A stretch of DNA of 48,204 nucleotides, from NCBI GenBank assembly GCA_964550225.1, contig CAZJXT010000001.1, positions 1 to 48,204 of the forward strand, read 5' to 3'. This document shows positions 4,560 through 41,886 of the stretch, piece after piece (within the stretch, counting starts at the first letter, position 1; each line of letters begins with the position of its first letter). Source of the stretch: an uncultured Candidatus Saccharibacteria bacterium (GTDB lineage Bacteria; Patescibacteriota; Minisyncoccia; Phycocordibacterales; UBA1006). Below the pieces are notes generated by a model. It was not told the origin of the DNA. It did no database searches and saw only the letters and a list, made by a program, of their open reading frames with translations. The translations under genes were made by a program, and so were the position numbers.

Positions 4560-4569
4560 GTTAAATATT

Positions 4570-5991: not shown

Positions 5992-6124
5992 AGGTCTATA
6001 TTTTATTTTTCGAAAGAACATTCTTTCTTGATACTAGCGTACCAGACATTTGACACACTTGCATTTATATTGCAAGAAATATATATTTATTAAACTATTG
6101 GTTTAATTTTGATATACTGTTTTT

Positions 6125-6952
6125 ATGCTCCTTGGAACCAAGAAAACTCTATACGACCATATAATGGAAGCCCTTTTGGGGGATTCTATGACTGTTTCAC
6201 AAATACAAGACTATTTAAAAGGTCTTTCTGTACATGCTTCGGTGCAGGGAATTTATAAAACTCTACGAGAATTATTAGCAGAAGATATTATTGTAAAACA
6301 CAAAACCGTCTATGCTATTAGTAATGTTTGGCGTGATCGGTTACTAAAAATCGTTTCACAGGATTTTGGATTTAAATTACAGCCCAATGAAGAGGTTTCA
6401 TATAAATTTAATACTATTGAAAATACTGATGCATTTTGGAAACACATGTTCCAAGACATTCGCAATGAAGTAAAAGATTTTCCTGTGTACCACTTTACAC
6501 CTCATCAGTACTGGCTCATGATTCCATCACGAAAACAAAGCGAGGAAGATTACTATAAAACATATGAGCAGGAAAAAATTTACTCATTCAATATTATTGG
6601 AGGTGAAACTATTTTTGATAACGAACGCAAGCGAGCACTGTCGTCACATTTTAATCAGGTAACTACTAATAGTAAGATCAACTTCAACCGTCGTGATCAC
6701 CTCTCTGTTATTGGTCCCTATATCATCACCACTCGTGTTTCAGTTACACTCGCACGTGTAACGGATCGACTGTACGAAACTTGTTTCACAGAAAAAGAAT
6801 TGCAAGAAAAACTTGAGCCTGAATTTAAAAAACATGGATCGGTTACGATGACGGTGGAACATAATTTAGAGAAAGCAAAATCAATGCGCAAAAAAATGTC
6901 TGCTGATTTTCATATTCCACGTGAACTACGCGAGAGATTTGATTTATTTTAA
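6125..6952 (+). CDS. Hypothetical protein with an N-terminal winged-helix-like DNA-binding region
   Basis: N-terminus LYDHIMEALLGDSMTVSQIQDYL...IYKTLRELLAEDIIVKHKTVYAIS resembles a wHTH. The rest is unassigned. -10 TATACT at 6113-6118 lies 6 nt before the ATG. Confidence 0.45.
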   Translation: MLLGTKKTLYDHIMEALLGDSMTVSQIQDYLKGLSVHASVQGIYKTLRELLAEDIIVKHKTVYAISNVWRDRLLKIVSQDFGFKLQPNEEVSYKFNTIENTDAFWKHMFQDIRNEVKDFPVYHFTPHQYWLMIPSRKQSEEDYYKTYEQEKIYSFNIIGGETIFDNERKRALSSHFNQVTTNSKINFNRRDHLSVIGPYIITTRVSVTLARVTDRLYETCFTEKELQEKLEPEFKKHGSVTMTVEHNLEKAKSMRKKMSADFHIPRELRERFDLF

Positions 6953-24960: not shown

Positions 24961-25359
24961 ATGCGATTTGAGGTACCACAATTTATTGATGTTGAAGAAA
25001 AAATATTTGGCCCACTTACTTTTAAACAATTTATTTATCTTCTTGGAGGAGCTGGTCTTGCCTATGTTTCATATAAATTAATTCCTTTTCCTTTTTGGAT
25101 TATTGTATCGGGAGCGTTTGTAGCATTGGCACTCCTGTTGGCATTTTACAAATTAAACAATCGACCATTCATTGAGATTGCTCAAAATTATATTAATTTT
25201 AAACTCAAGGGGAAATTGTATATTTGGAAACGTACTCCTACTCAAATAAAACCAGTTGAAAAACCTATTGAGCCTACAAACGCTCAACCTACTGAAAAAA
25301 TTATTACTGGAAAAACAATTAGTGATCTTGCAAAAAATCTTGATATTCTTGATTCATAA
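24961..25359 (+). CDS. PrgI family protein (VirB3-like small membrane component)
   Basis: MRFEVPQFIDVEEKIFGPLTFKQFIYLLGG followed by two TM helices, the hallmark PrgI N-terminus. Confidence 0.8.
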   Translation: MRFEVPQFIDVEEKIFGPLTFKQFIYLLGGAGLAYVSYKLIPFPFWIIVSGAFVALALLLAFYKLNNRPFIEIAQNYINFKLKGKLYIWKRTPTQIKPVEKPIEPTNAQPTEKIITGKTISDLAKNLDILDS

Positions 25360-25363
25360 CTAT

Positions 25364-25996
25364 ATGGCAAACTCAACTCAACAATTTGTACCTATAAAGG
25401 AAATTCGTGATAATGTAGCAGTTCTTAAAACCGGAGAACTGCGTGCGGTGCTATTGTGCCAAGCTATTAATCTTGATTTAAAATCAACAGATGAACAAAC
25501 TGCTGTAATTTTACAATTTCAAAACTTTCTTAATAGTCTTGATTTTTCAATTCAAATTATTGCATCTTCTCGAAGACTTGATATTCGTCCTTATATTATG
25601 AAACTTGAAAACCGTCTTGAGCAGATCGAAGGAGACTTATTACGTATTCAAACCAGTGAATATATTCAATTCATTCAAAAATTCAATGAGAGTTATGATG
25701 TTATGTCTAAATATTTCTATGTTATTGTTCCTTATGGAGCACAAGCATTGATTGGTGAGAGTTTTTTAGGCAACCTCTTTAAAACAAAGAAAGAAACTAC
25801 GGGAGTTACTCAAAATAAACAATTTGAAGAATCGCGCAGTCAACTAGAACAGAGAATTGCTGTAGTAACAAGCGGCTTACAGAATCTAGGAATTGACTGC
25901 AAACAACTCGACACTCCAGCTCTTGTTGAGCTCTATCAAAAAACATTTAATCCTGGAGAATTGCACTCTACTGCTGGAGCAATGGGGCAATCATAA
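25364..25996 (+). CDS. T4SS-associated protein resembling the N-terminal domain of Gram-positive VirB4 (TcpF/TrsE-like)
   Basis: TQQFVPIKEIRDNVAVLKTGELRAVLLCQAINLDLKSTDEQ resembles the conserved VirB4 N-terminal motif. There is no Walker motif. Confidence 0.5.
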   Translation: MANSTQQFVPIKEIRDNVAVLKTGELRAVLLCQAINLDLKSTDEQTAVILQFQNFLNSLDFSIQIIASSRRLDIRPYIMKLENRLEQIEGDLLRIQTSEYIQFIQKFNESYDVMSKYFYVIVPYGAQALIGESFLGNLFKTKKETTGVTQNKQFEESRSQLEQRIAVVTSGLQNLGIDCKQLDTPALVELYQKTFNPGELHSTAGAMGQS

Positions 25997-26018
25997 AAAA
26001 CACCGTGGGTGTTTTTTA
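25995..26018 (+). terminator. Intrinsic terminator-like hairpin inside the T4SS-like locus
   Basis: aaaaaacacc-gtg-ggtgtttttt followed by more T. Confidence 0.6.
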
Positions 26019-26067
26019 TTTTTTTAAAATCCTTGGTAGTTCTGTTTTAATTTTGTATACTATAATT

Positions 26068-27900
26068 ATGAGTTTACTTGGAGATCTCTTTGGGTCAAAT
26101 AAAAAAAATACCTCTCTTGCTATTCCGGTACTTCCATCGGATATTTATAATGCGGCAACAATGGAATTGCAGGATGTTATTGCTCCAAGTGCTGTCGAGG
26201 TTGGTACTAATACTATAAAAATAGGAGATAAAATATCTAAAACATATTTTGCGATGTCATATCCACGTATTCTTACAACAGGATGGCTCGCGCCTATTGT
26301 AAACCTTGATAAAATATTTGATGTTTCTATTCATATTAACCCTGTAGACACTTCTAGTGTATTGAAAGATTTTCAAAAAAAAGTTGCTGAGGTAGAATCT
26401 CAGATTATCGGTCGCCAAAAAGCAGGAATGGTTCGCGACCCCCAACTCGATGCTGCATATCAAAATCTTGAATCATTACGCGACAGCCTCATGCAGGCAA
26501 CCGAAAAAATGTTTGATGTTGGACTCTATATCACTATTTATGCAAGTAACGAAAACGAATTATTTAAACTTGAAAATAAAATTCGTTCCGAATTAGAAGG
26601 AAAACAAATTTATCTCAAACCAGCACTTTTCCAGCAAGAACAAGGTTTTCGTAGTGTTATTCCTACAGGATCTGACGAATTGCGAATTACTAATAAACTT
26701 AATTCCGGACCTCTCTCCTCATTTTTTCCATTTATTTCAAGCGAACTTACTGACAATAAAGGAATTCTGTATGGAGTAAATCGACAAAATGCAGGACTTG
26801 TTATTTTCGATCGATTCTCAATGCCCAACTATAACTCAGTAATTTTTGCACGATCAGGAGCGGGGAAGTCTTATGCAACGAAACTAGAAATTCTCCGTAC
26901 GATGATGTTCGATACTGACGTATTGATTATCGACCCAGAAAACGAATATCAATATTTAGCCGAAGCAGTAGGAGGAAGATTTTTTAAGGTGTCACTATCT
27001 TCAAATAGCCACATTAACCCATTTGATCTTCCTAAGCCACTTCCTGATGAATCACCATCTGATGTATTACGCGCAAATATTACAAGTCTTATCGGTTTAT
27101 TTCGAATTATTTTAGGAGGACTTACTCCAGAAGAAGATTCTATTGTTGACCGTGCTATTACAGAAACCTACGCATTAAAAGATATCACCGCAGATACTGA
27201 TTTTACACAAATTCCACCTCCATTAATACATGATTTTGAAATGGTACTAAGGTCGATGGATGGTAGTGAGTCTTTGGTAGAGCGATTAAAAAAATATACC
27301 GAGGGAACATGGGCAGGGTTTATGAATCAGCCAACAAATGTTGATATTGATCAAAAATTAGTAGTATTTTCAATTCGAGACATGGAAGACGAATTAAAAC
27401 CTGCAGCAATGTACATCATTACTCATTTTATTTGGAACGCTGTTCGAAAAAGTCTTAAAAAACGGCTTCTCGTTGTAGATGAAGCTTGGGTTATGATGCA
27501 AAACGAGGAAGCAGCTAGTTTCTTGTTTGGGATGGCAAAACGAGGACGTAAATATTTCTTAGGACTTGCAACCATTACTCAAGATGTTGGAGATTTCGTA
27601 AAATCAAAATACGGAATCCCTATTATTACCAACTCTTCACTCCAACTTCTTTTAGGGCAATCACCAACCGCAATTGATACTTTGCAAACCGTATTTAACC
27701 TAACTGATGGTGAAAAATATGCACTTTTGGAATCAGGGGTAGGAGAGGGAATCTTTTTTGCAGGAAAACAACACGTTTCTATCAAAGTTATTTCTAGCTA
27801 TACCGAAGACCAAATTGTGAGCTCTGATCCTCATCAAATTTTAGCACTGAGAAAAGCAAAAGAAGATATCGCCTCATCTGATAGTGCGTTTGTGAATTAA
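26068..27900 (+). CDS. virB4: VirB4/TrsE-family type IV secretion ATPase
   Basis: IAPSAVEVGTNTIKIGDK..YFAMSYPR..TGWLAPIVNLD N-terminal domain. Walker A ARSGAGKSYATK. Walker B LLVVDEAW. ATITQD. Confidence 0.88.
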   Translation: MSLLGDLFGSNKKNTSLAIPVLPSDIYNAATMELQDVIAPSAVEVGTNTIKIGDKISKTYFAMSYPRILTTGWLAPIVNLDKIFDVSIHINPVDTSSVLKDFQKKVAEVESQIIGRQKAGMVRDPQLDAAYQNLESLRDSLMQATEKMFDVGLYITIYASNENELFKLENKIRSELEGKQIYLKPALFQQEQGFRSVIPTGSDELRITNKLNSGPLSSFFPFISSELTDNKGILYGVNRQNAGLVIFDRFSMPNYNSVIFARSGAGKSYATKLEILRTMMFDTDVLIIDPENEYQYLAEAVGGRFFKVSLSSNSHINPFDLPKPLPDESPSDVLRANITSLIGLFRIILGGLTPEEDSIVDRAITETYALKDITADTDFTQIPPPLIHDFEMVLRSMDGSESLVERLKKYTEGTWAGFMNQPTNVDIDQKLVVFSIRDMEDELKPAAMYIITHFIWNAVRKSLKKRLLVVDEAWVMMQNEEAASFLFGMAKRGRKYFLGLATITQDVGDFVKSKYGIPIITNSSLQLLLGQSPTAIDTLQTVFNLTDGEKYALLESGVGEGIFFAGKQHVSIKVISSYTEDQIVSSDPHQILALRKAKEDIASSDSAFVN

Positions 27901-27929
27901 AAATCATGGTATACTAAAACCATGATTTT
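27900..27929 (+). terminator. Hairpin (11-bp stem) after virB4 that overlaps the first ATG of the next ORF
   Basis: aaaatcatggt-atactaaa-accatgatttt. Confidence 0.5.
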
Positions 27930-28947
27930 TAATATGAAAAAAAATGTTTTTCTTGGAATACTTTTTATGCTTATTACAATCCCGGTCTTTACGTATGCTC
28001 AGGTACAGGAAAACATTCAGTCGTACGACACAATGGTGAATGAGGGAGACTTTGTTTTCGAAGTGAATCCAGAAAATCCAGGACCTAATGAATTAGTTAC
28101 TATTAAATTAACTAGTGACTTAGTTGATACAAATCGATACCCAATTACATGGACGGTGGATGGCATTGTTGTTGAAACGGGAATCGGAAAACGCACTATT
28201 CAAACAAAGACTAAAAATTATGGCGAGACAACTGTTGTAGAAATCTCAATTAAGCTTGCTGAGTCTACCGTTACTAAACGAATCGCACTCAGTCCAAACG
28301 ATTCAACTATTCTTTGGGAAGCAATTGATTCCTATGTCCCACCATTTTATCCAGGTAAAAAACTACCAAGTGCTGAAGCATTAGTTCGCATTGTAAGTAT
28401 TCCAAATTTTTTATCAAGTAAACTTTCAACAGCAACAAAAAATGCTGTGTACACTTGGACACGTAATAAAAGTGCTATCACAGAAGCGAGTGGCTATGGC
28501 AAAGATTTTATTCTCATCAAACATAATAAAATCAGAGAGAGTGAAATTATCGGAGTTACCAGTAGTAGTACCGATGGGAGCCGTGTAGCTAAAACAAATA
28601 TTGTTATTCCATTCTTTGATCCTCAAATTGTATTTTATACAAAAAATAGAGCAACGGGAATTACTGAACAAAATGCAATTTCATCGCTTAATTTAACAGC
28701 TCCTGTAACAACCTTGATTGCAACTCCTTATTTCTTTTCAACAGTTGATGATACTCCACAGTTTTTAAAAACAAAATGGACTATGAATAATAAAAAAATA
28801 AACCCTTCTGATGCGTCAAAACCAAATCGTCTCATTATTCAAAAACCAGAATCTTCAGGTTCTGCAACTATTGGAATATCTATTGAAAACCCAGGGACTC
28901 TATTCCAAACGGCTACTAAAAATATTTCTGTTTCATTCAGAAAATAA
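27922..28947 (+). CDS. Secreted protein of unknown function (alternative start 27934, MKKNVF...)
   Basis: Signal peptide MKKNVFLGILFMLITIPVFTYA. Beta-rich composition. Confidence 0.55.
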   Translation: MIFNMKKNVFLGILFMLITIPVFTYAQVQENIQSYDTMVNEGDFVFEVNPENPGPNELVTIKLTSDLVDTNRYPITWTVDGIVVETGIGKRTIQTKTKNYGETTVVEISIKLAESTVTKRIALSPNDSTILWEAIDSYVPPFYPGKKLPSAEALVRIVSIPNFLSSKLSTATKNAVYTWTRNKSAITEASGYGKDFILIKHNKIRESEIIGVTSSSTDGSRVAKTNIVIPFFDPQIVFYTKNRATGITEQNAISSLNLTAPVTTLIATPYFFSTVDDTPQFLKTKWTMNNKKINPSDASKPNRLIIQKPESSGSATIGISIENPGTLFQTATKNISVSFRK

Positions 28948-28956
28948 TTTATCCTT

Positions 28957-30702
28957 ATGAATTTCTCTTATATTAAAAAACTAATTTTTATTGTAGTAAT
29001 CAGTATTTTCGCTATTCCTTTTTCCGTCTATGCGCAACAAGCAGGAGGGGCAACTACGTTTTCTGGAAAAACGCCTAGCACGAGCACTTTTACTACAAAC
29101 ACTGAAACTGGAATAACTACTGGTACAAATGATTGCGAAATAATTTCTGCTGAGTTTTCACCATTCACAAACACCTCTTCAACAACCCAGGCAATGGAGG
29201 GGTTTTATAAAAGTAATATAGTTACTCCTATTATTGTAACCATAACTACCAAAGATTGTGCTCAGAAAAAAATTAAAGTTTCTCTCATGGAAAAAGATAA
29301 AGGTCCTGGTGTTAATATCTTTGATAGCCTTACAGGAGATGATCCCGTAAGCATTCTCAACAACAAAGAATTAACAGTTGGTCCTGATGAGCAAATAATT
29401 ATTAGTCTTCAGGCTGGTGAATCTGAATGTGAAACAGGCCAAACTATTCAAATAGGAAATGTTTTTCCTGACTGTGTTTATTATCTTCATATTGAAAATA
29501 GTAACGGTGTTGTTTTCGAAACCATGGATGATAATCTTGTTTTTAAACATGCCGGAATGCTTGCTTATGAATGTGATGTTTCTGATATTGTAGGAACTAT
29601 TATTACAGTAACAACAGCAGGAACACAAAGCGGTTGTCTTGATGATTGGAAATATACTGGAGACACCTCTCTTAAAGACAGTAGCAGTGTTACTCTCGAA
29701 GAAGCAGGGTCCCTCACTGACCCAAATTCTGCATGTGGAGACAATCCTGATTGTTATGAATTATTTGCAGGATTTGGAAAAGCTTTAGGTGAAAAATTTG
29801 CAACCGTAAAACCTTCAAGTCTTGGCGACTTCATCAATATGCTTATCATGTTTGCTATTGGTATCTTTGGAATTATTTTAATTGTCCGTATTTTCTTACT
29901 CGGGTTTCAAATAGCTCAAGATAAAAAAGATGGTAAAGTAGTCGCACTAAGTGATACTAAAGAAGAACTTTTTAAGGCAATCGGTGGATTCATTCTCTTG
30001 TTATGTATCTTTATTATTTTGCGAACGATTAATCCTGACTTGTTAAATCTTACACCAAGAATTGATGCGTTGTCTCTTGAGGTTAAAAGTCGTACTGATG
30101 ACCCTAATGTTAAATCATATGTTGATTCTATTGATACTTCAGAAATTACCAGTCATCCAGTTGATTATGACGATGAGACATTCTTAACCTATCTCGGACA
30201 TCAACAAGGTGCAGCAGGTGCAGCATCTATTTTGTGGGCGTACCATCGAGGATACTCATCAATTCCTAACACTACTCCATTTTTAAGTAACGCATCTATT
30301 ACAAATATGCGTATGCAAAAAAATTATTTTGGCTCAGGAACCGCCACTCCTCAAGCATTTCTTGATTACTGGTGGAAAAAAACCGAGGCAAATAAGAAAA
30401 AAACTGATGCTATTCCTGAAGAAATAAACAACGTCTTGAAAAAAGTTGCTGCTGATACCAACGTATCTCTCAAAACAATTCAAGTAATGTGTATGATCGA
30501 AAGTTTTGGATGTAGTAATCCCAATGCTGTAAATGGGAGCTATAAGGGGTTATTTCAAATGGGACCCACTGAATTTGCAACCTATAAACGAACTGGTGCC
30601 ACGAATATTTTTGACCCTTATGAAAACGCATATGCTGGAGCAATGTATTCGAAAAGTAATTATTCTTATATAAAAAACAAATGGAATAAAATACTTCCAT
30701 AA
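28957..30702 (+). CDS. Fusion protein: secreted N-terminal domain, T4SS pilin-like two-helix hairpin and C-terminal SLT lytic transglycosylase (VirB1-like)
   Basis: Signal peptide. FINMLIMFAIGIFGIILIVRIFLLGF...charged loop...GGFILLLCIFIILRTINP. SLT motifs MIESFG, YKGLFQM, NAYAGAMY. Confidence 0.65.
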   Translation: MNFSYIKKLIFIVVISIFAIPFSVYAQQAGGATTFSGKTPSTSTFTTNTETGITTGTNDCEIISAEFSPFTNTSSTTQAMEGFYKSNIVTPIIVTITTKDCAQKKIKVSLMEKDKGPGVNIFDSLTGDDPVSILNNKELTVGPDEQIIISLQAGESECETGQTIQIGNVFPDCVYYLHIENSNGVVFETMDDNLVFKHAGMLAYECDVSDIVGTIITVTTAGTQSGCLDDWKYTGDTSLKDSSSVTLEEAGSLTDPNSACGDNPDCYELFAGFGKALGEKFATVKPSSLGDFINMLIMFAIGIFGIILIVRIFLLGFQIAQDKKDGKVVALSDTKEELFKAIGGFILLLCIFIILRTINPDLLNLTPRIDALSLEVKSRTDDPNVKSYVDSIDTSEITSHPVDYDDETFLTYLGHQQGAAGAASILWAYHRGYSSIPNTTPFLSNASITNMRMQKNYFGSGTATPQAFLDYWWKKTEANKKKTDAIPEEINNVLKKVAADTNVSLKTIQVMCMIESFGCSNPNAVNGSYKGLFQMGPTEFATYKRTGATNIFDPYENAYAGAMYSKSNYSYIKNKWNKILP

Positions 30703-30727
30703 AAAACACCTTCATAGGGTGTTTTTT
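30701..30727 (+). terminator. Rho-independent terminator
   Basis: aaaaacacc-ttcatag-ggtgttttt. Confidence 0.65.
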
Positions 30728-30754
30728 ATATTTGTTCTATATTATAATAATCAC

Positions 30755-32329
30755 ATGCCTCCAGAAAAAAAATATGACCTCAAAAAAATAATTATCGTAG
30801 GGGTTTTACTTCTTGTTATTATGGGACTATTAGGATATTGGTTTTTTGTCATAAGAAAACCTGCTTTTAATGACCCATCTCAAACAAAAAATCTTTTTCC
30901 TTTCGGTGATAATCAAACCACAACATCTCTCACTGATCAAGGAAACACTCCTGGTATTGTAACTCCACCTCTTGGCGAAAATCCAATTAAGGTTACCGAA
31001 GGTGATAGGTTACGCATGGTTGCAAATTATCCTGTTACTGGATACTACTCATTTATTGAAAATAGATTGACCCCTCAACCAAAATTTGATGAAAAAACAA
31101 AAGAAACCATCGTATCTACATTAAATGTTCCTGTAAATATTTTACGATTTAATGTGAAAGAAAAAGGTTTTCTTATTGATGCAGAAATTAATACTGATTC
31201 AATTATTGTTTCTCAAAAAACAAAAACTGAGTTTCCTGTACCTGAAGAATTATGGTTTACTCGCGCAGGTAGTGGTTTTGTATTTAGAACCTGGAACGAT
31301 TATGAAAATACCATTGATTCATTTGTTGCATCACTTCCTGAAATTAAACCTCTTGGATATTGCGAAAAAACTCTTACTGGGATAGTCGCACAAGGATCCA
31401 AAAATGAAACCGTTAAAGAGTTACAAAAATATCTTGCTAAGAAACTCGCTGTGGTTATTACGGCAGATGGATCGTTTGGTGCCAAGACAACAACATTAGT
31501 GAAACAACTTCAAAACCTTTTTGCACTTCCTCAGACAGGAAAACTTGATGATCTTACCCGTGAAGCAATCAATGGAGACTGTCTCAATATTCAAACCGAT
31601 TACGCAAACAAAAACAAGGGACCCTTTGTTCTTACTGGAGCATTTCTCCCTTCAAATATTTTACGAGGAACCTCTTCGCCTGATGGAACATCTCTATTTT
31701 TCCTCAAAAAAAATAATTCTGGATCTGTTATTGGAACTCTTGCATCTGCAAACGGAACGAATCAAAAACCATTTTTCGAATCTCCTTTTTCTGAATGGAA
31801 CCCTGTATGGATTAATGAAAATCTTATTACGATGACCACACTGGCATCACGTGAAGCAAATGGATATCTCTATGGATTAAACCCAAAGACAGGAGACTTC
31901 AAAAAAATACTTGGTCCAATTCGAGGACTTACCACGAATACAAATCCTGACGGAACCAAGGTGCTCTATACGACCAGTACCGATAAAGGTATCATTACTC
32001 GTGTGTACACCATAGCGAACGGTAATTTACAAACCCTTGAAATGCCTACACTTGCCGAAAAATGTGTATGGAAAGACAATGTGATTATTATTTGTGCAAT
32101 ACCTCAAACTACACCTTCTGCACAATATCCAGATGCGTGGTATCAAGGACTTCTCAGTTTTTCAGATTCAATCTGGTCAATAAATACTGATTCTGGTGTG
32201 ACCAATCTTATTCTTGCCCCTTTGAAAGCATTTGATATGATCAAACCAGGATTAAGTCCTGATAAAAACTACTTTTTCTTTATTAATAAAAAAGATTCTA
32301 CGTTATGGTCATATCGACTCAATGATTAG
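30755..32329 (+). CDS. Membrane-anchored protein with a peptidoglycan-binding (PG_binding_1) domain and TolB-like beta-propeller repeats
   Basis: TM IIIVGVLLLVIMGLLGYWFFV. VKELQKYLAK...ADGSFGAKTTTLVKQLQNLFALPQTGKLD. Repeated SPDGT/NPDGT/SPDKN motifs. Confidence 0.65.
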   Translation: MPPEKKYDLKKIIIVGVLLLVIMGLLGYWFFVIRKPAFNDPSQTKNLFPFGDNQTTTSLTDQGNTPGIVTPPLGENPIKVTEGDRLRMVANYPVTGYYSFIENRLTPQPKFDEKTKETIVSTLNVPVNILRFNVKEKGFLIDAEINTDSIIVSQKTKTEFPVPEELWFTRAGSGFVFRTWNDYENTIDSFVASLPEIKPLGYCEKTLTGIVAQGSKNETVKELQKYLAKKLAVVITADGSFGAKTTTLVKQLQNLFALPQTGKLDDLTREAINGDCLNIQTDYANKNKGPFVLTGAFLPSNILRGTSSPDGTSLFFLKKNNSGSVIGTLASANGTNQKPFFESPFSEWNPVWINENLITMTTLASREANGYLYGLNPKTGDFKKILGPIRGLTTNTNPDGTKVLYTTSTDKGIITRVYTIANGNLQTLEMPTLAEKCVWKDNVIIICAIPQTTPSAQYPDAWYQGLLSFSDSIWSINTDSGVTNLILAPLKAFDMIKPGLSPDKNYFFFINKKDSTLWSYRLND

Positions 32330-37061: not shown

Positions 37062-37826
37062 TTACTCAAAATACTCCTCATGTTCTCCGTTTTTGAAAAT
37101 CCAAACATTGTTCCAAAACACACTTTTGTTTGTTGTTTGATAAATATATATCGTCCATATATTTATATGTAAACCAAGATGTTTTTTTACAAAATGAATA
37201 CCTTCACAAGTAGGTCTTTGACAGGTTGCAGGTATAAACGAAACGAGATTTTTGATACCGCTTTTTTCTAATTCAACTAAAAATGGTACAAACTCCTGAG
37301 CACAACCATTCTTTAAAGAACAAGTGCTTCTGAATTTTGTATCAAACTTATTCCGTAGTCGCGATTCACTGAAGTGAAGTTTTGATTTAAAAACTCGGCA
37401 TTCTGATGATGGTTTCAAAAAAACATCATCAGTAAAACCATTTTTTGAGATTAGGTCGCTGTATATTTTAGGAACCTCATCTTTTTCATAGTAATGTTTT
37501 CTAAAAACATTCGGATCTTTGTTATCAGGATCATTTTTGGGTACCTTTTGCCAATCGTTAACCAAAGAAATAAGTTTTGACTGCGGATTTGCTTTTAAAA
37601 GATGTAGTCCGGCCAAAAATGTTTCCATTGGAAATTCTGAAGAATAAGGATCCGTTTTTAATTCGTTTTTAAGAGAAACATTTTTAATTTCTTGATAAAT
37701 ACCAGGTATTAATATGTTATTATCAGGAACAAGTTGATAGTGTCCACACATAATACCAATAGAACCAGTAGATGTTTTTAATTGATTATTTAAAAAATGA
37801 ATGAGTGCAGTTTTACGGTTTTTCAT
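37062..37826 (-). CDS. Hypothetical Cys-containing protein, no recognised family
   Basis: 254 aa ORF bounded by a terminator and an AT-rich promoter region. Confidence 0.45.
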   Translation of the reverse strand: MKNRKTALIHFLNNQLKTSTGSIGIMCGHYQLVPDNNILIPGIYQEIKNVSLKNELKTDPYSSEFPMETFLAGLHLLKANPQSKLISLVNDWQKVPKNDPDNKDPNVFRKHYYEKDEVPKIYSDLISKNGFTDDVFLKPSSECRVFKSKLHFSESRLRNKFDTKFRSTCSLKNGCAQEFVPFLVELEKSGIKNLVSFIPATCQRPTCEGIHFVKKHLGLHINIWTIYIYQTTNKSVFWNNVWIFKNGEHEEYFE

Positions 37827-37969
37827 ATGAAATTGTTTAGATTTATGATAAAGAATACAAAACTTTTTAATTTTTGTGTTTTATGATATAAATTAAGAAC
37901 AGAACAGGTATTATAAAACAAGGTTTTATTAAAAATAATATAAATTTGTTCGTAATAAGTAACAAAAAT

Positions 37970-38758
37970 ATGTATGAATTAGCAGAAAAATTAGAACTTG
38001 TTGGTCTGAATCAAAAAGAGTCTCGCATCTATGCTTATTTACTATCGGTTCCAGGCGCATATCCTTCTGATATTGCTGAAAAAACAAAAATAAACAGAAG
38101 TACTACCTACAAAACTTTGACATCTCTTGCAATAAAAGGACTGGTTGCAGAAATTGAAAAAGGCAAGAAGATTTTTTATCGAAGTGAAAATCCAAAGAAG
38201 TTAAAATACTTGGCAAAAAATAGAATAATGCAGGCAGAGTTAATGAATGATCGGATTGAAAAAATATCACCGATCTTAGAAGGTGTTTTTAATAAAGCGT
38301 CCGGAAGACCAGGTGTTACTTATTATGAAGGAAAGGATGCGGTTGTTAATGCATACATGAGTCATGTTCAGGTTGAAAAAGGATATCAAATGCTTGCTTT
38401 CGTAAGCGTCGTTGATCTTAAAGATTTCCTACCAACAAAACAGTTTAAATTTTATATCAAGGAAAAAGAAAGGTTGGGTATTACAGCAAAAGGTATTACA
38501 TCAACACATTCTTATAGTTATCAATTTTCTGAAGATATGTTTTTAGGAATTAATAAAAAAATATGGCCAGAATTTCACTATATTAAAGAAGACTTATTTA
38601 ATTTTCCTGGAGAAATAACACTATTTGATAACAATAAAATATCAATTGTAAAATTTGATACATTACAACCAATTGCTGTAATTATTGAGGATCAAATGAT
38701 TTATGATGTTTTAAAAGCAATTTTTAATATCGTTTGGAATTACGGCAGTAGTAAGTAA
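37970..38758 (+). CDS. TrmB-family transcriptional regulator
   Basis: LELVGLNQKESRIYAYLLSVPGAYPSDIAEKTKINRSTTYKTLTSLAIKGLV wHTH plus a C-terminal TrmB-like domain. Confidence 0.75.
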   Translation: MYELAEKLELVGLNQKESRIYAYLLSVPGAYPSDIAEKTKINRSTTYKTLTSLAIKGLVAEIEKGKKIFYRSENPKKLKYLAKNRIMQAELMNDRIEKISPILEGVFNKASGRPGVTYYEGKDAVVNAYMSHVQVEKGYQMLAFVSVVDLKDFLPTKQFKFYIKEKERLGITAKGITSTHSYSYQFSEDMFLGINKKIWPEFHYIKEDLFNFPGEITLFDNNKISIVKFDTLQPIAVIIEDQMIYDVLKAIFNIVWNYGSSK

Positions 38759-38764
38759 ATAAAT

Positions 38765-38788
38765 AAAAACCACTGAGAAGTGGTTTTT
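38765..38788. terminator. Bidirectional intrinsic terminator
   Basis: aaaaaccac-tgagaa-gtggttttt. Confidence 0.7.
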
Positions 38789-38791
38789 ATT

Positions 38792-39538
38792 TTATATTTT
38801 GGAATTTTCTCCAAGCGAATCCCATGTAAAATCAAATAAACCTTTTATCATCTGAGTAAAAACAGGAGAATCAATAATAATAGATTCCAGTTTTTCTTTA
38901 TTGAATATAAATAAAGCAACCTTATCTCCATAAATAGTTAAGTCACCAGTAAAGAGATATTTTTCAGGCATTGCACGTACTTCTTGTCCGGAGTCCGACC
39001 GTAGGTGCTGATGTCCATTGTGTACAATAAGTTTTGCAAACACTTGAGACCTTCTTCGTCGTTCAATCCATTGAGGGAAATATTTAGGAAGTACCGAATA
39101 GAGATCTGTGTGAGAAATAGCGAAGACAAATTGAGGCTTGTTTGTTTCAAGATAAGAAATAATATCCTCCCAAACCGTTTTCAAACCTTCTTTACCTGTA
39201 AAAAGCCTTACAGATGAATCTTTTTCTTTAGAAAAATGAGCCACTTGTTTCAAAAGAGGTAACAACTCATCCAAAACAACCTTCTTTTGTTCTAAAAGAA
39301 GTGGAAATTGTTGAATACTTTCAGAAACCCAATATTGTGTTTTATTTTTTCGAAACGAAGAAACAAGCGATTGTTGTTTTAATTCGTTAAGTATCGAATA
39401 AGTAGTAGTCCTAGGAATGTTTAATGCTCGAGATATCTCCAAAACAGTATCCTCCATTTTTTCAAGAAGATAGAGGTACACTTTCGCATGACGTTCTGAT
39501 AGTCCGTATTTTGTAAGAAGGTTAATAATATTCTCCAT
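38792..39538 (-). CDS. TrmB-family transcriptional regulator
   Basis: LTKYGLSERHAKVYLYLLEKMEDTVLEISRALNIPRTTTYSILNELKQQSLV. Confidence 0.75.
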   Translation of the reverse strand: MENIINLLTKYGLSERHAKVYLYLLEKMEDTVLEISRALNIPRTTTYSILNELKQQSLVSSFRKNKTQYWVSESIQQFPLLLEQKKVVLDELLPLLKQVAHFSKEKDSSVRLFTGKEGLKTVWEDIISYLETNKPQFVFAISHTDLYSVLPKYFPQWIERRRRSQVFAKLIVHNGHQHLRSDSGQEVRAMPEKYLFTGDLTIYGDKVALFIFNKEKLESIIIDSPVFTQMIKGLFDFTWDSLGENSKI

Positions 39539-39670
39539 ATTTCATAGATGTCTCAAAAAAAGACACATTTATATTCTATAATATCTTTATAAATAAAGCA
39601 AATATTAGAAATATTATAAATAATGACTAAAAAATAGTACAATACTTGAAATATGTTGTAAAGTATTTAT

Positions 39671-40423
39671 ATGAATAAAGATATAAAAACAAACAATAAA
39701 GAAGCGTGGAATTCATTATATGGACAAAAATATCTTTCAGGGGGTTCGGCACTACCAGCATGGGGTATCACATCAATTGGTTCTGATATAACCCCAAAGA
39801 TTATAACTATTAATAATAAAACAATCTTAGAACTAGGTTGCGGTGACGGACAATCCGTTGAGTATATTTTAAAAAATAAACCAAAACAGTATGTCGGTAT
39901 TGATATATCAGAAGAAGCTATTAAAAAATCAAAAGAAAAATACCAATCAGAACTAGTTCATTTTATCCAAGGTGATATTTCTAAAAAACTACCATTTGCA
40001 GATAATTCATTTGATGAGGTTATCAGTATTTATGGGTTAGGGTGGTCAGAAAATATTGAATTTACCGTACAGGAAATCTATCGCGTATTAAAACCTGGTG
40101 GGAAAATAACATTTAGTTGGGATCATTATCTAGCGAGAGTGGTCGGAGAATCTGATGGAAAAATATTTTTTCAGGGATCATATAACGAAGAAAATCCAAC
40201 CGTTCGTTTTAATTGGAATCAAACAGGTTATAACATTACTTCTTTTCAGGCGAAACCAAGTACGTGGATAAATCTTTTCTTAACAAAAGGATTTCATTTA
40301 CAACATTTTTATGAACTCTCAGCTGATATTAAAAACCAAACAGATCACTCGTTTTCCCAAATCTATTCACTCAGTCGTAGTGAAAAGATCCCTTTTACTT
40401 TATTAATGCAATTTATAAAATAA
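39671..40423 (+). CDS. Class I SAM-dependent methyltransferase
   Basis: ILELGCGDGQS (motif I), DISEEAI, FDEVISIYGL, LKPGGKI. -10 TAAAGT lies 6 nt before the ATG. Confidence 0.8.
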   Translation: MNKDIKTNNKEAWNSLYGQKYLSGGSALPAWGITSIGSDITPKIITINNKTILELGCGDGQSVEYILKNKPKQYVGIDISEEAIKKSKEKYQSELVHFIQGDISKKLPFADNSFDEVISIYGLGWSENIEFTVQEIYRVLKPGGKITFSWDHYLARVVGESDGKIFFQGSYNEENPTVRFNWNQTGYNITSFQAKPSTWINLFLTKGFHLQHFYELSADIKNQTDHSFSQIYSLSRSEKIPFTLLMQFIK

Positions 40424-40425
40424 TT

Positions 40426-41267
40426 ATGAAAAACAATTTTGATAAACAATATAAAAAAATAATCAAAGATTGCCTTGAGCGTGGATTTTTGAGACCGACC
40501 CGTTCTGAAATATCAGCCTATAGTTTAATGGGTTCGGTAATTACTCATGATATGAAAGAGGGTTTTCCATTGTCTACGTTGCGTAAAATGCCCCAGAAAA
40601 GCATGCGTGTAGAAACAGAGTTTTATCTCAAAGGATATACAGATAAAAAGTGGCTCCAAGATCGAGGATGTCACTTCTGGGACCATTGGTCTAACAAAAC
40701 ATCAGATGATGAAAATGATCTTGGTCCAACCTATGGTTTCGAATGGCGACATTTTGGTGCAGACTATAAAGGTATTGGTGACTATACCGGACAGGGGGGG
40801 TTGATCAAATTAAATGGGTTATTGAAAAACTAAAAAAGTATCCCGAAAATAAGAGACTTGTTGTTTCACAATGGAATCCAAAAGATATTGATCAACAGGC
40901 TATTCCGCCGTGTCCTTTTGCCTTTCAATTACTTAAACATGGTGATGAATTAAATTTAATTTTTTACCAAAGAAGCGCAGATGTATGCTTAGGACTTCCA
41001 AACGATTTTGCACAACATGCACTTCTTCTTGAGTTGTTCTGTAAAGAAGTTGGATATAAACCAGGAAAAGTAATTGGAATGTTTGGACAAGTAGAGCTTT
41101 ACGAGAATCATATTGAGGGTGCAAAAGAATTATTAAAACGAAGAAGTAAAAAACTTCCTCAAGTGATTACTGAAAAATTCAAAACAATATTTGATTGGTC
41201 TTATGAAGATACGCAGGTTATTAATTATAAATCAGGGGAGGTAATTAAATTCCCCATAGCAATTTAA
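40426..41267 (+). pseudogene. Thymidylate synthase (ThyA) family homologue, split by a frameshift in a G7 run; Asp at the Asn177-equivalent position
   Basis: Frame 1 (40426-40800) reads ...GFPL..LRK...FWDHW...DLGPTYGFEWRHFG...DYTGQGG. The -1 frame from 40800 reads VDQIKWVIEKLKKYPENKRLVVSQWNP...IPPCPFAFQ...YQRSADVCLGLPNDFAQHALL...LYENH...PIAI*, collinear with ThyA. Confidence 0.8.
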
Positions 41268-41278
41268 TCTAAATAATT

Positions 41279-41857
41279 ATGAAAAAAATTTCAATTATCG
41301 GAAAATCAACAGTAGATAGTAACTCGCAAGAATTTAAAATGATTCACAGTCTTGCAAAAAAACTAGTAGAAAATGGTAGAGGTGTTATTCATGGAGGATA
41401 CGCAGGAGGAATTATGGAAGCCGTATCGAATGGTGCACATGAAGCGATTCAAGAAAATAATTTATCAAAAGAGTTTAATCTAGGGATCCCTGAAGAACGA
41501 TTTGATAAAGATTGGCCTCGAGTAGAAGGTGCTCATTTTTCAGATCCATCAAAAGATATTTTTGATCGATTAAGATTAGTCACCGCAGGAGATGTTGTTG
41601 TCGTGGCACCAATTGGTGGTGATGGGACAGCTCTTGAAGTTGATATTGTTATTCATGAAAACCTTCTCACAAAATATTCAGGAGAAAAAATAAAACCAGT
41701 TATTTTTTTAGAAACAGAAAACGGTACAAAATGGAAAGAATTTATTTCAAGTAGGAACTTATTAGCTACAAGTGAAAAAATTTTGGAAAAAGATTGGATT
41801 TATTTTGTAAAAAATATAGATGATATTATAACAATTATTAATAATCATACACAATAA
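41279..41857 (+). CDS. LOG/TIGR00730-like Rossmann-fold protein (possible nucleotide N-glycosidase)
   Basis: HGGYAGGIMEAV and PIGGDGTALE resemble the GGGxGxM and PGGxGTxxE LOG motifs. Confidence 0.6.
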   Translation: MKKISIIGKSTVDSNSQEFKMIHSLAKKLVENGRGVIHGGYAGGIMEAVSNGAHEAIQENNLSKEFNLGIPEERFDKDWPRVEGAHFSDPSKDIFDRLRLVTAGDVVVVAPIGGDGTALEVDIVIHENLLTKYSGEKIKPVIFLETENGTKWKEFISSRNLLATSEKILEKDWIYFVKNIDDIITIINNHTQ

Positions 41858-41864
41858 AAACCGC

Positions 41865-41886
41865 ATATGCGGTTTTTATTGTTTTT
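41865..41886. terminator. Bidirectional intrinsic terminator
   Basis: aaaaaccgcatatgcggttttt. Confidence 0.8.

What the first reader, a model, noticed from the sequence alone, without database searches (positions are those of the whole stretch)
39671..41857. Methyltransferase + ThyA-like (Asp variant) + LOG-like cassette resembling 5-hydroxymethylcytosine/bacimethrin-type pyrimidine pathways
Three tightly packed co-directional genes (2-nt and 11-nt spacers) are bounded by a promoter region and a strong terminator (41865-41886). They encode a SAM methyltransferase, a thymidylate-synthase-fold enzyme and a LOG-like Rossmann protein of the kind that hydrolyses nucleoside-monophosphate N-glycosidic bonds. 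The same three chemistries form the core of the Clostridium botulinum bacimethrin (thiamin antivitamin) pathway. There a ThyA homologue acts as a CMP hydroxymethylase, an N-glycosidase releases 5-hydroxymethylcytosine, and an O-methyltransferase completes the product. The first two steps also occur in mildiomycin biosynthesis (MilA/MilB). The cassette sits in what looks like an accessory stretch (37062-41857) between dnaN/DUF721 and a PBP gene. That stretch also holds two TrmB-family regulators and an unknown Cys-containing protein. No ThiD-like kinase is present. An ordinary thyA with unrelated neighbours remains the null hypothesis.
Basis: inference. Interest (0 to 1): 0.68.

Follow-up and report, generated by a model that had tools for sequence, protein, structure and literature searches.

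The report
Cytosine-methylating ThyA, LOG hydrolase, methyltransferase operon
A tiny symbiotic-type (CPR) bacterium carries a regulated three-gene operon, conserved in its relatives and not described in the papers searched, that probably turns a cytosine nucleotide into a free methylated pyrimidine base using a re-purposed thymidylate synthase, a LOG-type sugar-base cleaving enzyme and a methyltransferase; in this strain the synthase gene is broken by a frameshift.

Summary
Three co-directional genes (SAM methyltransferase 39671-40423, ThyA-like 40426-41267, LOG-like 41279-41857) lie between a conserved promoter/operator region and a strong terminator. The ThyA-like gene carries Asp at the Asn177 specificity position and is interrupted by a +2 G frameshift (G7, 40794-40800), which an independent assembly reproduces.

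The module is real. All 11 independent Patescibacteria loci with this ThyA type have a methyltransferase and the same rare LOG-like protein adjacent, with gene order shuffled in two. Two independent LOG-methyltransferase fusions exist.

The bacimethrin/5-hydroxymethylcytosine reading is only partly supported:
- The ThyA-like enzyme branches within true thymidylate synthases, far from MilA and T4 dCH.
- It keeps the methyl-transfer machinery (Trp83, Ile143, Asp169, C-terminal tail), so 5-methyl-(d)CMP is the likelier product.
- The glycosidase has a LOG fold, not the MilB/BcmB (NDT) fold.
- The methyltransferase family varies between loci.

Searched from the LOG side, LOG plus methyltransferase is the constant core and ThyA(Asp) is present in about half of the loci.

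Best model: a regulated pathway that releases a methylated cytosine-type free base. This is a new variant of a known logic. The chemistry is untested.

The parts
38792..39538 (-). Divergently transcribed TrmB-family HTH regulator (TrmB2, 248 aa), the presumed regulator of the operon
   Evidence: Pfam TrmB 52.7 bits. Orthologues at 69-89% identity sit in the same divergent position in L001, L009, L013 and L014. Other loci carry a different 276-aa wHTH-like protein or another TrmB protein in the same position.
39548..39565 (.). Conserved palindrome ATGTC-N9-GACA in the divergent intergenic region (candidate operator)
   Evidence: Invariant columns in an alignment of five loci whose proteins are 57-75% identical. 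The operator function is inferred.
39585..39598 (.). Perfect palindrome CTTTAT-AA-ATAAAG (candidate operator)
   Evidence: Conserved in all five aligned loci, with a single substitution in L009. The function is inferred.
39638..39643 (+). Conserved -10-like hexamer TACAAT, 28 nt upstream of the methyltransferase start codon
   Evidence: GTACAA is invariant in five loci. The consensus sigma-70 scan did not call it.
39671..40423 (+). Class I SAM-dependent methyltransferase (250 aa), a small module-specific family
   Evidence: Pfam Methyltransf_11, 88.9 bits. Only about 17 full-length homologues were found, on contigs whose sizes coincide with those carrying ThyA(Asp). AF2 model pLDDT 81; structural neighbours are uncharacterised or small-molecule methyltransferases. 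pN/pS against L001 is 0.13.
40426..41267 (+). Thymidylate-synthase-fold enzyme with signature K126/I143/P147/D177/E207 (E. coli numbering). Predicted cytosine-nucleotide C5-methylase, interrupted by a frameshift in this strain.
   Evidence: PF00303, 245 bits after repair. Residue table. Tree. Intact orthologues of 278-279 aa, P0001-P0060.
40794..40800 (+). G7 homopolymer, a +2 insertion relative to G5 in relatives, which shifts the reading frame. A -1 slip on G_GGG_GGG would restore the full-length frame.
   Evidence: Alignment with L001 and L002. Same G7 in the independent assembly L043. pN/pS is 0.07 upstream and 0.08 downstream of the lesion. The slippage idea is inference from the sequence.
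41279..41857 (+). LOG-fold (SLOG superfamily) protein, 192 aa. Predicted nucleoside-5'-monophosphate N-glycosidase (phosphoribohydrolase).
   Evidence: AF2 pLDDT 93.9. Foldseek matches YgdH, type-I/II LOG, TT1465 and PpnN at TM 0.69-0.79. Invariant HGGY.GG.M, Arg97 and GG.GT..E120. Rare family: 19 cluster representatives at E<=1e-30 among 1.84 billion.
41851..41882 (+). Intrinsic terminator: 14-bp stem, 4-nt loop and T-run. It overlaps the LOG stop codon and faces the convergent PBP gene.
   Evidence: Terminator scan and the sequence itself.

Best explanation
This is a regulator-controlled operon of a Patescibacteria (CPR) chromosome that makes a free, methylated cytosine-type nucleobase from a cytosine nucleotide.

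Proposed steps:
1. The TS-derived enzyme uses 5,10-methylene-THF to modify C5 of CMP (slightly favoured) or dCMP. The Asn177-to-Asp change switches the base from uracil to cytosine. The product is most likely 5-methyl-(d)CMP plus DHF, because the hydride-transfer machinery of TS is retained. 5-hydroxymethyl is less likely.
2. A SAM methyltransferase adds a second methyl group to the same pyrimidine, either before or after cleavage. The position is unknown.
3. The LOG-type phosphoribohydrolase cleaves the N-glycosidic bond, releasing the base and (deoxy)ribose 5-phosphate. This is the same 'modify the nucleotide, then release the base' logic as cytokinin activation.

The LOG plus methyltransferase pair is the evolutionary core, and ThyA(Asp) is an add-on present in about half of the loci. 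In this strain the ThyA-like gene has a recent +2 G frameshift. Step 1 is therefore probably lost or much reduced here, leaving the core pair.

What is shown: gene anatomy, family and fold assignments, residue signatures, conservation of the linkage, the fusions, and the frameshift.
What is inferred: substrates, products, order of steps and physiological role (antimetabolite, signal or other).
For: Linkage:
- 11 of 11 independent ThyA(K126/I143/P147/D177/E207) loci have a methyltransferase and the LOG-like gene adjacent. These are the window, L001, L003, L005, L007 and L009-L014.
- They sit in at least 5 different genomic neighbourhoods.
- The order is methyltransferase-LOG-ThyA in L010 and L011.
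- The sister clade locus L019 has TrmB, then a LOG~methyltransferase fusion, then ThyA(Asp).
- P0211 is an independent methyltransferase~LOG fusion.
- Both partner families are tiny and module-specific.

Base specificity: Asp at position 177 in all clade members. Asp177 confers cytosine preference (PMC5175136, PMC8670742, PMC13326640).

Methyl product:
- Ile143, Trp83, Asp169, Tyr94 and the C-terminal 'PIAI' tail are retained.
- These are the features that seal the site and orient the pterin for hydride transfer.
- T4 dCH and MilA have Asp at position 143, and T4 dCH additionally has Val in place of Trp83 and no C-terminal tail.

Ribose hints:
- Lys126, as in MilA and BcmA.
- His207 replaced by Glu.
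- The L028 variant has Ala167 with an orthologous LOG partner.

LOG catalysis: invariant Arg97 and Glu120 motifs and the LOG fold.

Not housekeeping: other CPR Asp177 ThyAs that keep R126/L143/H207 sit in dCMP-deaminase-ThyA-DHFR-Tmk operons. This clade never does.

Not phage-borne: no relatives in IMG/VR.

Dedicated regulation: a divergent HTH regulator at every locus and conserved palindromes.
Against: - No biochemical data exist for any member.
- The sugar signals are mixed. Ser167, the deoxy-type residue of TS and T4 dCH, is retained.
- Two features resemble T4 dCH and could favour hydroxymethylation. Thr93 in most of the clade lies where T4 dCH has Ser94, which contacts the candidate substrate water. 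Asn176 precedes Asp177, as in T4 'RND'.
- A TS-type methylase yields DHF, yet no DHFR gene is adjacent.
- The methyltransferase is replaced by at least five non-orthologous families. Its substrate may therefore differ between loci, or may not be the pyrimidine at all.
- LOG plus methyltransferase pairs exist without ThyA, so the LOG substrate need not be C5-modified.
- SLOG domains can also act as nucleotide sensors rather than hydrolases.
- In this window the ThyA gene is frameshifted.
Confidence: 0.5

Rival explanations
1. Bacimethrin/mildiomycin-type pathway. The ThyA-like enzyme is a CMP hydroxymethylase, the LOG-like enzyme releases 5-hydroxymethylcytosine, and the methyltransferase O-methylates it to a bacimethrin-like thiamin antivitamin.
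For: - The same three chemistries occur in one operon.
- Asp177 is present.
- Lys126 is shared with MilA and BcmA.
- Thr93 and Asn176 resemble T4 dCH Ser94 and Asn178.
- No DHFR gene is adjacent. Hydroxymethylases regenerate THF and would not need one.
Against: - Position 143 is Ile, not Asp/Glu. Trp83, Asp169 and the C-terminal tail are retained.
- The enzyme is phylogenetically within TS, not with MilA or T4 dCH.
- The glycosidase is not an NDT-family enzyme and lacks the hmCMP-recognition motif.
- No ThiD or thiaminase gene is present.
- The methyltransferase in sister locus L019 is an amino-group N-methyltransferase type.
- LOG plus methyltransferase occurs without ThyA.
Confidence: 0.15
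2. Alternative thymine or thymidylate supply. (d)CMP is methylated to 5-methyl-(d)CMP, which is deaminated to (d)TMP, or is cleaved to 5-methylcytosine, deaminated to thymine and then salvaged.
For: - The signature is methylase-type.
- Other CPR ThyA(Asp177) genes sit with dCMP deaminase, DHFR and Tmk. So 5-methyl-dCMP-based thymidylate synthesis may exist in this phylum.
Against: - This clade is never next to a deaminase, DHFR or Tmk gene.
- It has a dedicated regulator and is patchily present.
- This reading leaves the methyltransferase unexplained.
- The gene is frameshifted in this strain, which is unlikely to be tolerated for an essential function.
Confidence: 0.1
3. Processing of scavenged modified nucleotides. 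The LOG-like enzyme degrades modified NMPs or dNMPs obtained from foreign nucleic acids to recover ribose 5-phosphate. The ThyA-like enzyme and the methyltransferase act in clean-up or interconversion, for example by reversing a hydroxymethylation.
For: - From general knowledge, CPR bacteria depend on nucleotide salvage.
- LOG and PpnN enzymes hydrolyse NMPs to base plus ribose 5-phosphate (structural matches).
- TrmB-family regulators typically respond to sugars (family name only).
Against: - It gives no obvious role for a SAM methyltransferase that is fused to the LOG domain twice.
- The TS-type methyl transfer is not reversible.
- The module is rare rather than widespread in CPR.
Confidence: 0.08
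4. Nucleotide-pool modification for DNA (5-methyl-dC replacement) or an anti-phage nucleotide-depletion defence.
For: - ThyA(Asp) homologues in phages make modified dCMP for DNA.
- The nearest outgroups, P0059 and P0061, include a phage-like contig, L008.
- The SLOG domain gives weak hits to ThsA.
Against: - No dNMP kinase, dCTPase or other phage-type partner is present.
- The LOG enzyme would destroy the product.
- There is no PADLOC system match.
- No relatives occur in viral contigs.
- Lys126 and Glu207 replace the deoxyribose-type residues.
Confidence: 0.05
5. Null hypothesis: an ordinary, decaying thyA with unrelated neighbours.
For: - The protein scores above the TIGR03284 thymidylate synthase cut-off (215 against 108 bits).
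- Sources annotate homologues as thymidylate synthase.
- The gene is frameshifted here.
Against: - Asn177 is replaced by Asp, together with four co-varying active-site changes, in more than 60 orthologues.
- Linkage with the methyltransferase and LOG gene holds in 11 of 11 loci despite rearrangement.
- There is strong purifying selection.
- The housekeeping context of DHFR and Tmk is seen only for other lineages.
Confidence: 0.03

Closest known systems
Bacimethrin pathway BcmA/BcmB/BcmC (Clostridium botulinum) and MilA/MilB (mildiomycin, Streptomyces rimofaciens)
   Same: - A TS-fold enzyme with Asp at the 177-equivalent position modifies C5 of a cytosine nucleotide.
- An N-glycosidase releases the free base.
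- In bacimethrin biosynthesis, a SAM methyltransferase finishes the product.
- Lys at TS position 126' is shared.
   Different: - The ThyA-like enzyme here arose independently from within TS.
- It has Ser167 and Ile143 where MilA has Ala and Asp.
- It keeps the TS C-terminal tail, so a methyl product is predicted rather than hydroxymethyl.
- The glycosidase has the LOG fold, not the NDT fold.
- The methyltransferase family varies between loci.
- No ThiD or thiaminase gene is present.
- The host is a CPR bacterium.
Thymidylate synthase ThyA (EC 2.1.1.45) and its N177D/N229D mutants, which act as dCMP methylases
   Same: - 45-50% identity to CPR/DPANN-type ThyA and 32% to E. coli ThyA.
- All catalytic and folate-handling residues are kept (Cys146, Glu58, Arg21, Arg166, Asp169, Trp80, Trp83, Tyr94, C-terminal tail).
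- The Asp177 change is known to turn TS into a dCMP methylase.
   Different: - It is a natural variant with four extra co-varying changes: R126K, L143I, H147P and H207E.
- It sits in a regulated operon with LOG and a methyltransferase, not with DHFR and Tmk.
LOG / PpnN (YgdH) nucleotide phosphoribohydrolases and the IPT+LOG cytokinin route
   Same: - The fold and the catalytic motifs match.
- The logic is the same: modify a nucleoside monophosphate, then release the active free base.
   Different: - It is a separate small subfamily, below the TIGR00730 and LOG HMM thresholds.
- It is coupled to a pyrimidine C5-modifying enzyme and a methyltransferase.
- The substrate is unknown.
Phage dCMP hydroxymethylase (T4 gp42) and related 5-hydroxy-dCMP or 5-methyl-dCMP synthases
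   Same: - An Asn-Asp dipeptide at positions 176-177, as in T4 'RND'.
- Cytosine specificity.
   Different: - Ile143 and Trp83 replace T4's Asp145 and Val85, and the C-terminal tail is present.
- There is no D169N change.
- It is cellular, not viral.
- There are no kinase or glycosyltransferase partners.

Membership tests
Thymidylate synthase ThyA (dUMP-specific) | TS fold / PF00303 match with catalytic Cys146, Glu58, Arg166 and Asp169 | tested here: met
   245 bits to PF00303. All four residues are present.
Thymidylate synthase ThyA (dUMP-specific) | Asn177, which selects uracil | tested here: not met
   Asp in the window and in all of P0001-P0061.
Thymidylate synthase ThyA (dUMP-specific) | Housekeeping context (DHFR, Tmk, deaminase) or being the sole thymidylate synthase of the genome | tested here: inconclusive
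   DHFR and Tmk are never adjacent in 11 loci, unlike L044 and L045. The whole-genome content could not be examined.
MilA/BcmA CMP 5-hydroxymethylase | Asp at the TS-177 equivalent | tested here: met
MilA/BcmA CMP 5-hydroxymethylase | Ala at TS-167 and Lys at TS-126' (ribose preference; PMC5175136) | tested here: inconclusive
   Lys126 is present and Ser167 is retained.
MilA/BcmA CMP 5-hydroxymethylase | Asp/Glu at TS-143 (hydroxymethyl product; PMC13326640) | tested here: not met
   Ile143.
MilA/BcmA CMP 5-hydroxymethylase | Phylogenetic grouping with MilA | tested here: not met
   The NJ tree places the clade within TS. It scores 42 bits over 105 aa to MilA against 198 bits to TS 7ta9. BcmA itself was not available.
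T4-type dCMP hydroxymethylase | Asp145 (TS-143), Val85 (TS-83) and no C-terminal tail | tested here: not met
   Ile143 and Trp83, with the tail 'KFPIAI' present.
5-hydroxy-dCMP synthase | D169N | tested here: not met
   Asp169 is retained.
Natural (d)CMP C5-methylase (TS-like with Asp177) | Asp177 plus intact hydride-transfer features (hydrophobic 143, Trp83, Asp169, C-terminal tail) | tested here: met
   with criteria taken.
Natural (d)CMP C5-methylase (TS-like with Asp177) | Demonstrated formation of 5-methyl-(d)CMP plus DHF | not testable with these tools
   Needs an enzyme assay.
MilB/BcmB/BlsM N-glycosidase (NDT family) | NDT flavodoxin-like fold and the F-L-(G/A)-(G/A)-P-F-(R/K)-x-L motif | tested here: not met
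   The motif is absent from the sequence. No NDT-family structure appears among the top 50 Foldseek hits. There is no PF05014 hit.
LOG family / SLOG superfamily phosphoribohydrolase | LOG Rossmann-like fold | tested here: met
   TM 0.69-0.79 to 9us2, 5zi9, 5zbl, 1wek and 6gfl.
LOG family / SLOG superfamily phosphoribohydrolase | GGGxGxMG-like and PGGxGTxxE motifs, with catalytic Arg and Glu | tested here: met
   HGGYAGGxM, Arg97 and P-x-GGDGT-x-L-E120 are invariant or nearly so in 26 sequences.
LOG family / SLOG superfamily phosphoribohydrolase | Score above curated family thresholds | tested here: inconclusive
   PF18306 SLOG cluster4 scores 28.5 against a 26.3 cut-off, so it passes, but only over residues 3-56. 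TIGR00730 (16 against 96) and TIGR00725 (28 against 107) fail.
Bacimethrin gene cluster | ThiD-type kinase and thiaminase I accompany bcmABC | tested here: not met
   None was found among window ORFs of 120 aa or more, nor in the related loci inspected.
Known anti-phage defence systems (PADLOC) | Match of the components to a defence-system model set | tested here: not met
   Only generic methyltransferase-domain and weak STALD hits. ThyA has no hit.

The most novel reading that the evidence does not exclude
Ultra-small CPR bacteria use a cytokinin-like 'modify the nucleotide, then let LOG release the base' route to make diffusible methylated cytosine-type nucleobases. One example would be a dimethylated cytosine built by a TS-derived CMP C5-methylase plus interchangeable SAM methyltransferases. 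These bases would act as signals or antimetabolites toward hosts or competitors. The frequent swapping of the methyltransferase and the gain or loss of ThyA(Asp) would reflect chemical diversification of the product.
Probability: 0.3. Interest if true: 0.8.

Novelty: new variant of a known kind. Interest (0 to 1): 0.6.

Why it matters
If the model holds, it has four consequences:
1. It defines a natural, cellular cytosine-nucleotide C5-methylase lineage that evolved from thymidylate synthase independently of MilA/BcmA and of phage enzymes. The lineage has a new residue signature (K126/I143/P147/D177/E207) that could be used to re-annotate many proteins now labelled 'thymidylate synthase'.
2. 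It shows a LOG-type hydrolase taking the role that NDT-type enzymes play in pyrimidine natural-product pathways.
3. It gives CPR bacteria, which are thought to have almost no specialised metabolism, a small regulated pathway for a modified nucleobase.
4. The three enzymes are small and soluble, so the prediction can be tested directly in vitro.

Tried and rejected
- Phage collections. tblastn of the ThyA-like protein against 50,697 phage records found only hits below 40% identity. IMG/VR scans with the ThyA-like protein and with the LOG-like profile found no relatives. A phage origin or phage DNA-modification role is rejected.
- PADLOC. There is no defence-system match.
- Methyltransferase substrate. 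PDB sequence search and Foldseek on the AF2 model returned only uncharacterised or assorted small-molecule methyltransferases such as RebM, MitM, TleD, ToxA and METTL6. This is not informative.
- Literature. Six searches found no description of a ThyA(Asp)+LOG+methyltransferase module. The original bacimethrin paper (Cooper et al. 2014) is not held, so BcmA, BcmB and BcmC could not be aligned directly.
- Sigma-70 promoter scan. It found no convincing + strand site upstream of 39671. Conservation analysis was used instead.
- Second thyA or thyX and folA. None was found in the 48-kb window.
- L020 (sister-clade ThyA P0067). The contig ends 474 nt upstream of the gene, so the absence of partners there is uninformative.


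Full report
**1. Anatomy**

On the + strand there are three genes:
- A 250-aa methyltransferase gene at 39671-40423.
- After a 2-nt spacer, a thymidylate-synthase-like gene at 40426-41267.
- After an 11-nt spacer, a 192-aa gene at 41279-41857.

A 14-bp stem-loop with a T-run follows at 41851-41882. Upstream, a TrmB-family regulator (38792-39538) is transcribed divergently.

The 132-nt intergenic region is AT-rich and gives no consensus sigma-70 hit. I aligned it with the equivalent regions of four loci whose proteins are only 57-75% identical. Three conserved blocks appear:
- A palindrome ATGTC-N9-GACA at 39548-39565.
- A perfect palindrome CTTTAT-AA-ATAAAG at 39585-39598.
- A -10-like TACAAT at 39638-39643.

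The window as a whole is the origin region of a low-GC Patescibacteria chromosome. It contains yidC, rnpA, dnaA and dnaN, then the cassette, then a class A PBP and TyrRS. The closest loci come from MAGs labelled Saccharibacteria, Paceibacterota, Nomurabacteria or Parcubacteria.

**2. The frameshift**

The ThyA-like reading frame changes from frame 1 to frame 3 at a G7 run (40794-40800). Relatives with 91% DNA identity have G5 and an intact 279-aa protein. An independent Logan assembly of run SRR6837549, L043, has 1 mismatch in 5602 bp and carries the same G7. The lesion is therefore reproducible and not a one-off assembly error.

There is no other lesion in the gene. pN/pS against L001 is 0.07 upstream and 0.08 downstream of the G-run. 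The frameshift is therefore very recent or is bypassed. Read directly from the sequence, a -1 slip on G_GGG_GGG would give '...GQGG|VDQIKW...', a full-length product. That is inference only.

**3. The ThyA-like enzyme**

The repaired protein scores 245 bits on PF00303 and 198 bits against a solved TS, 7ta9.

About 60 orthologues (51-95% identity, 272-285 aa, all intact) share a five-residue signature relative to E. coli TS:

| E. coli TS | This clade |
|---|---|
| Arg126 | Lys |
| Leu143 | Ile |
| His147 | Pro |
| Asn177 | Asp |
| His207 | Glu |

They retain Arg21, Glu58, Trp80, Trp83, Tyr94, Cys146, Arg166, Ser167, Asp169, Tyr209 and the C-terminal tail.

Published work assigns meaning to these positions:
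- Asp177 switches the base from uracil to cytosine.
- A bulky hydrophobic residue at 143 supporting Trp83, together with Asp169 and the C-terminal tail, seals the site for hydride transfer and gives a methyl product. Hydroxymethylases (T4 dCH, MilA) have Asp at 143, and T4 dCH also has Val at 83 and no tail.
- D169N marks 5-hydroxy-dCMP synthases.
- Ala167 and Lys126' mark the ribo-preferring MilA and BcmA.

By these rules the enzyme is a cytosine-nucleotide C5-methylase. The sugar signals are mixed: Lys126 is ribo-like, Ser167 is deoxy-like, and Glu207 is new.

Two caveats point the other way. Thr93 (in most of the clade) and Asn176 resemble T4 dCH Ser94 and Asn178.

In an NJ tree the Asp177/Glu207 proteins form one clade. 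It comprises the window's group, a ~292-aa sister group, and two phage-like sequences. The clade sits inside TS-like enzymes of CPR/DPANN type, far from MilA and from T4 dCH (the T4 sequence was verified). The Asp switch therefore arose independently here.

**4. The LOG-like protein**

Sequence searches give only weak SLOG and TIGR00725 hits. The AF2 model (pLDDT 93.9) matches YgdH, type-I and type-II LOG, TT1465 and PpnN at TM 0.69-0.79. No NDT-family structure (MilB, BlsM, Rcl) appears among the top 50 hits.

The LOG hallmarks are invariant or nearly so in 26 family members: HGGYAGGxM, Arg97 and P-x-GGDGT-x-L-Glu120. The MilB/BcmB motif F-L-(G/A)-(G/A)-P-F-(R/K) is absent.

The subfamily is rare. 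Only 33 homologues were found by the word-indexed search. Only 19 cluster representatives reach E<=1e-30 among 1.84 billion.

**5. The methyltransferase**

It is a class I Methyltransf_11 enzyme. Only about 17 full-length relatives were found, on contigs whose sizes coincide with those carrying ThyA(Asp). Its structural neighbours are uncharacterised or small-molecule methyltransferases, so the substrate cannot be read from the fold.

**6. Linkage**

Starting from ThyA(Asp), every independent locus has a methyltransferase and the LOG-like gene adjacent, plus a divergent HTH regulator (except L007, where none was identified upstream). These loci are the window, L001/L002, L003/L004, L005/L006, L007 and L009-L014. 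They occupy at least five different neighbourhoods. The order is methyltransferase-LOG-ThyA in L010 and L011.

The sister-clade locus L019 has TrmB, then a canonical LOG domain fused to an NPPF (HemK/RsmC-type amino-group) methyltransferase, then ThyA(Asp). That contig has one apparent frameshift inside the LOG part. P0211 is an independent fusion in the opposite order, with a different methyltransferase family.

Starting from the LOG-like family (22 metagenome loci), a SAM methyltransferase lies next to LOG in most loci with enough flank (none was seen in L034). It belongs to at least five unrelated families. ThyA(Asp) is present in about half of these loci:
- Present: L022, L023, L025, L026, L028, L039 and L040.
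- Firmly absent within about 4 kb on both sides: L031/L038, L032, L035, L036, L037 and L041.

In the LOG tree, ThyA-linked and ThyA-less loci are interleaved. L028 carries a more MilA-like ThyA (Ala167, Asp177, Glu207) with an orthologous LOG partner. That nudges the sugar call toward ribose.

**7. Contrast and exclusions**

Other CPR ThyAs with Asp177 that keep Arg126, Leu143 and His207 sit in dCMP deaminase-ThyA-DHFR-thymidylate kinase operons. That is a housekeeping context never seen for the window's clade.

The module has no relatives in viral contigs and no close ThyA relative (above 40% identity) in cultured phages. It matches no PADLOC defence system. No ThiD, thiaminase, DHFR or second ThyA is present in the window.

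The stretch 37062-38758 (an unknown 254-aa protein and a second TrmB paralogue) is an insertion. It is absent from L001, L002 and L009 but present in L043.

**8. Interpretation**

The idea of a functional pyrimidine-modifying cassette is right, and the null hypothesis is rejected.

The specific analogy is only partial, for three reasons:
- The TS-fold enzyme is an independently derived, methylase-type cytosine enzyme.
- The glycosidase is LOG-type.
- The methyltransferase is interchangeable.

I propose a regulated pathway:
1. (d)CMP is converted to 5-methyl-(d)CMP.
2. A second SAM-dependent methylation takes place.
3. The LOG-type enzyme releases a methylated cytosine-type base plus (deoxy)ribose 5-phosphate.

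LOG plus methyltransferase is the core, and ThyA(Asp) is an accessory. In this strain ThyA(Asp) has just been inactivated or down-tuned by the G7 frameshift. Confidence is about 0.5.

Gene anatomy, folds, signatures, linkage and fusions are shown. Substrates, product, order of steps and role are inferred.

I found no description of this module in the searchable literature. I classify it as a new variant of a known kind of pathway. It is of moderate-to-high interest and can be tested directly in vitro.

Noticed in passing
L044 3894-7080 and L045 4484-6364: In other Patescibacteria contigs, a ThyA with Asp177 that keeps Arg126, Leu143 and His207 (Tyr or Phe at 147) sits in an operon with dCMP deaminase, DHFR and (in L044) a P-loop kinase and thymidylate kinase. 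This suggests that some CPR bacteria may make dTMP through 5-methyl-dCMP and deamination rather than through dUMP.
   Followed up: partly
L005 10360-12010 (- strand): A second ThyA-like protein of 321 aa belongs to the MilA family (PDB 5b6d, E 1e-21). It has the ribo-type R-A-N-D and S-K-R motifs, but Asn at the base-specificity position. It is paired with a Methyltransf_3 O-methyltransferase and lies 4 kb from the triad. It may be a UMP-modifying pair.
   Followed up: partly
L003 2254-4409; L026 204-2244: A second, ThyA-less module sits directly beside the triad. It consists of a regulator paralogue, then a methyltransferase (235 aa), then a different SLOG protein (182 aa, TIGR00725-like). 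Methyltransferase+SLOG pairs are therefore a recurring theme in these genomes.
   Followed up: partly
window 37062-38758: A 254-aa Cys-containing protein has no hit in Pfam, NCBIfam or PADLOC. Together with an extra TrmB paralogue (TrmB1) it forms an insertion relative to close relatives (L001, L002, L009). The insertion is present in the near-identical assembly L043. This stretch has the lowest GC of the window (0.28-0.31).
   Followed up: partly
L008 (whole locus, ThyA at 6001-6846): The most distant 'PNDF' ThyA (P0061: Asn176/Asp177/Glu207, but Arg126/Gln127/Leu143/Ile147) lies in a phage-like contig with terminase, PolA, VapE-like and SNF2 genes. It has no methyltransferase or LOG partner. 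It is a likely viral dCMP-modifying relative of the clade.
   Followed up: no
L019 3622-4946: The LOG~NPPF-methyltransferase fusion gene of the sister clade has an apparent 1-nt frameshift inside the LOG domain, between '...GIALA' and 'EPHAFLDEYE...'. I could not tell whether it is real or an assembly error.
   Followed up: no
window 24961-32329; 1100-1996; 3837-5463: There is a type IV secretion-like block (PrgI-family protein, VirB4/TraG-like ATPase, peptidoglycan-binding protein). There is also a tyrosine integrase, and a radical-SAM plus methyltransferase pair. None has an apparent link to the cassette.
   Followed up: no
It gives no Pfam match at E<=0.01. An ORF of the same size follows dnaN in L002 and L043.
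   Followed up: partly
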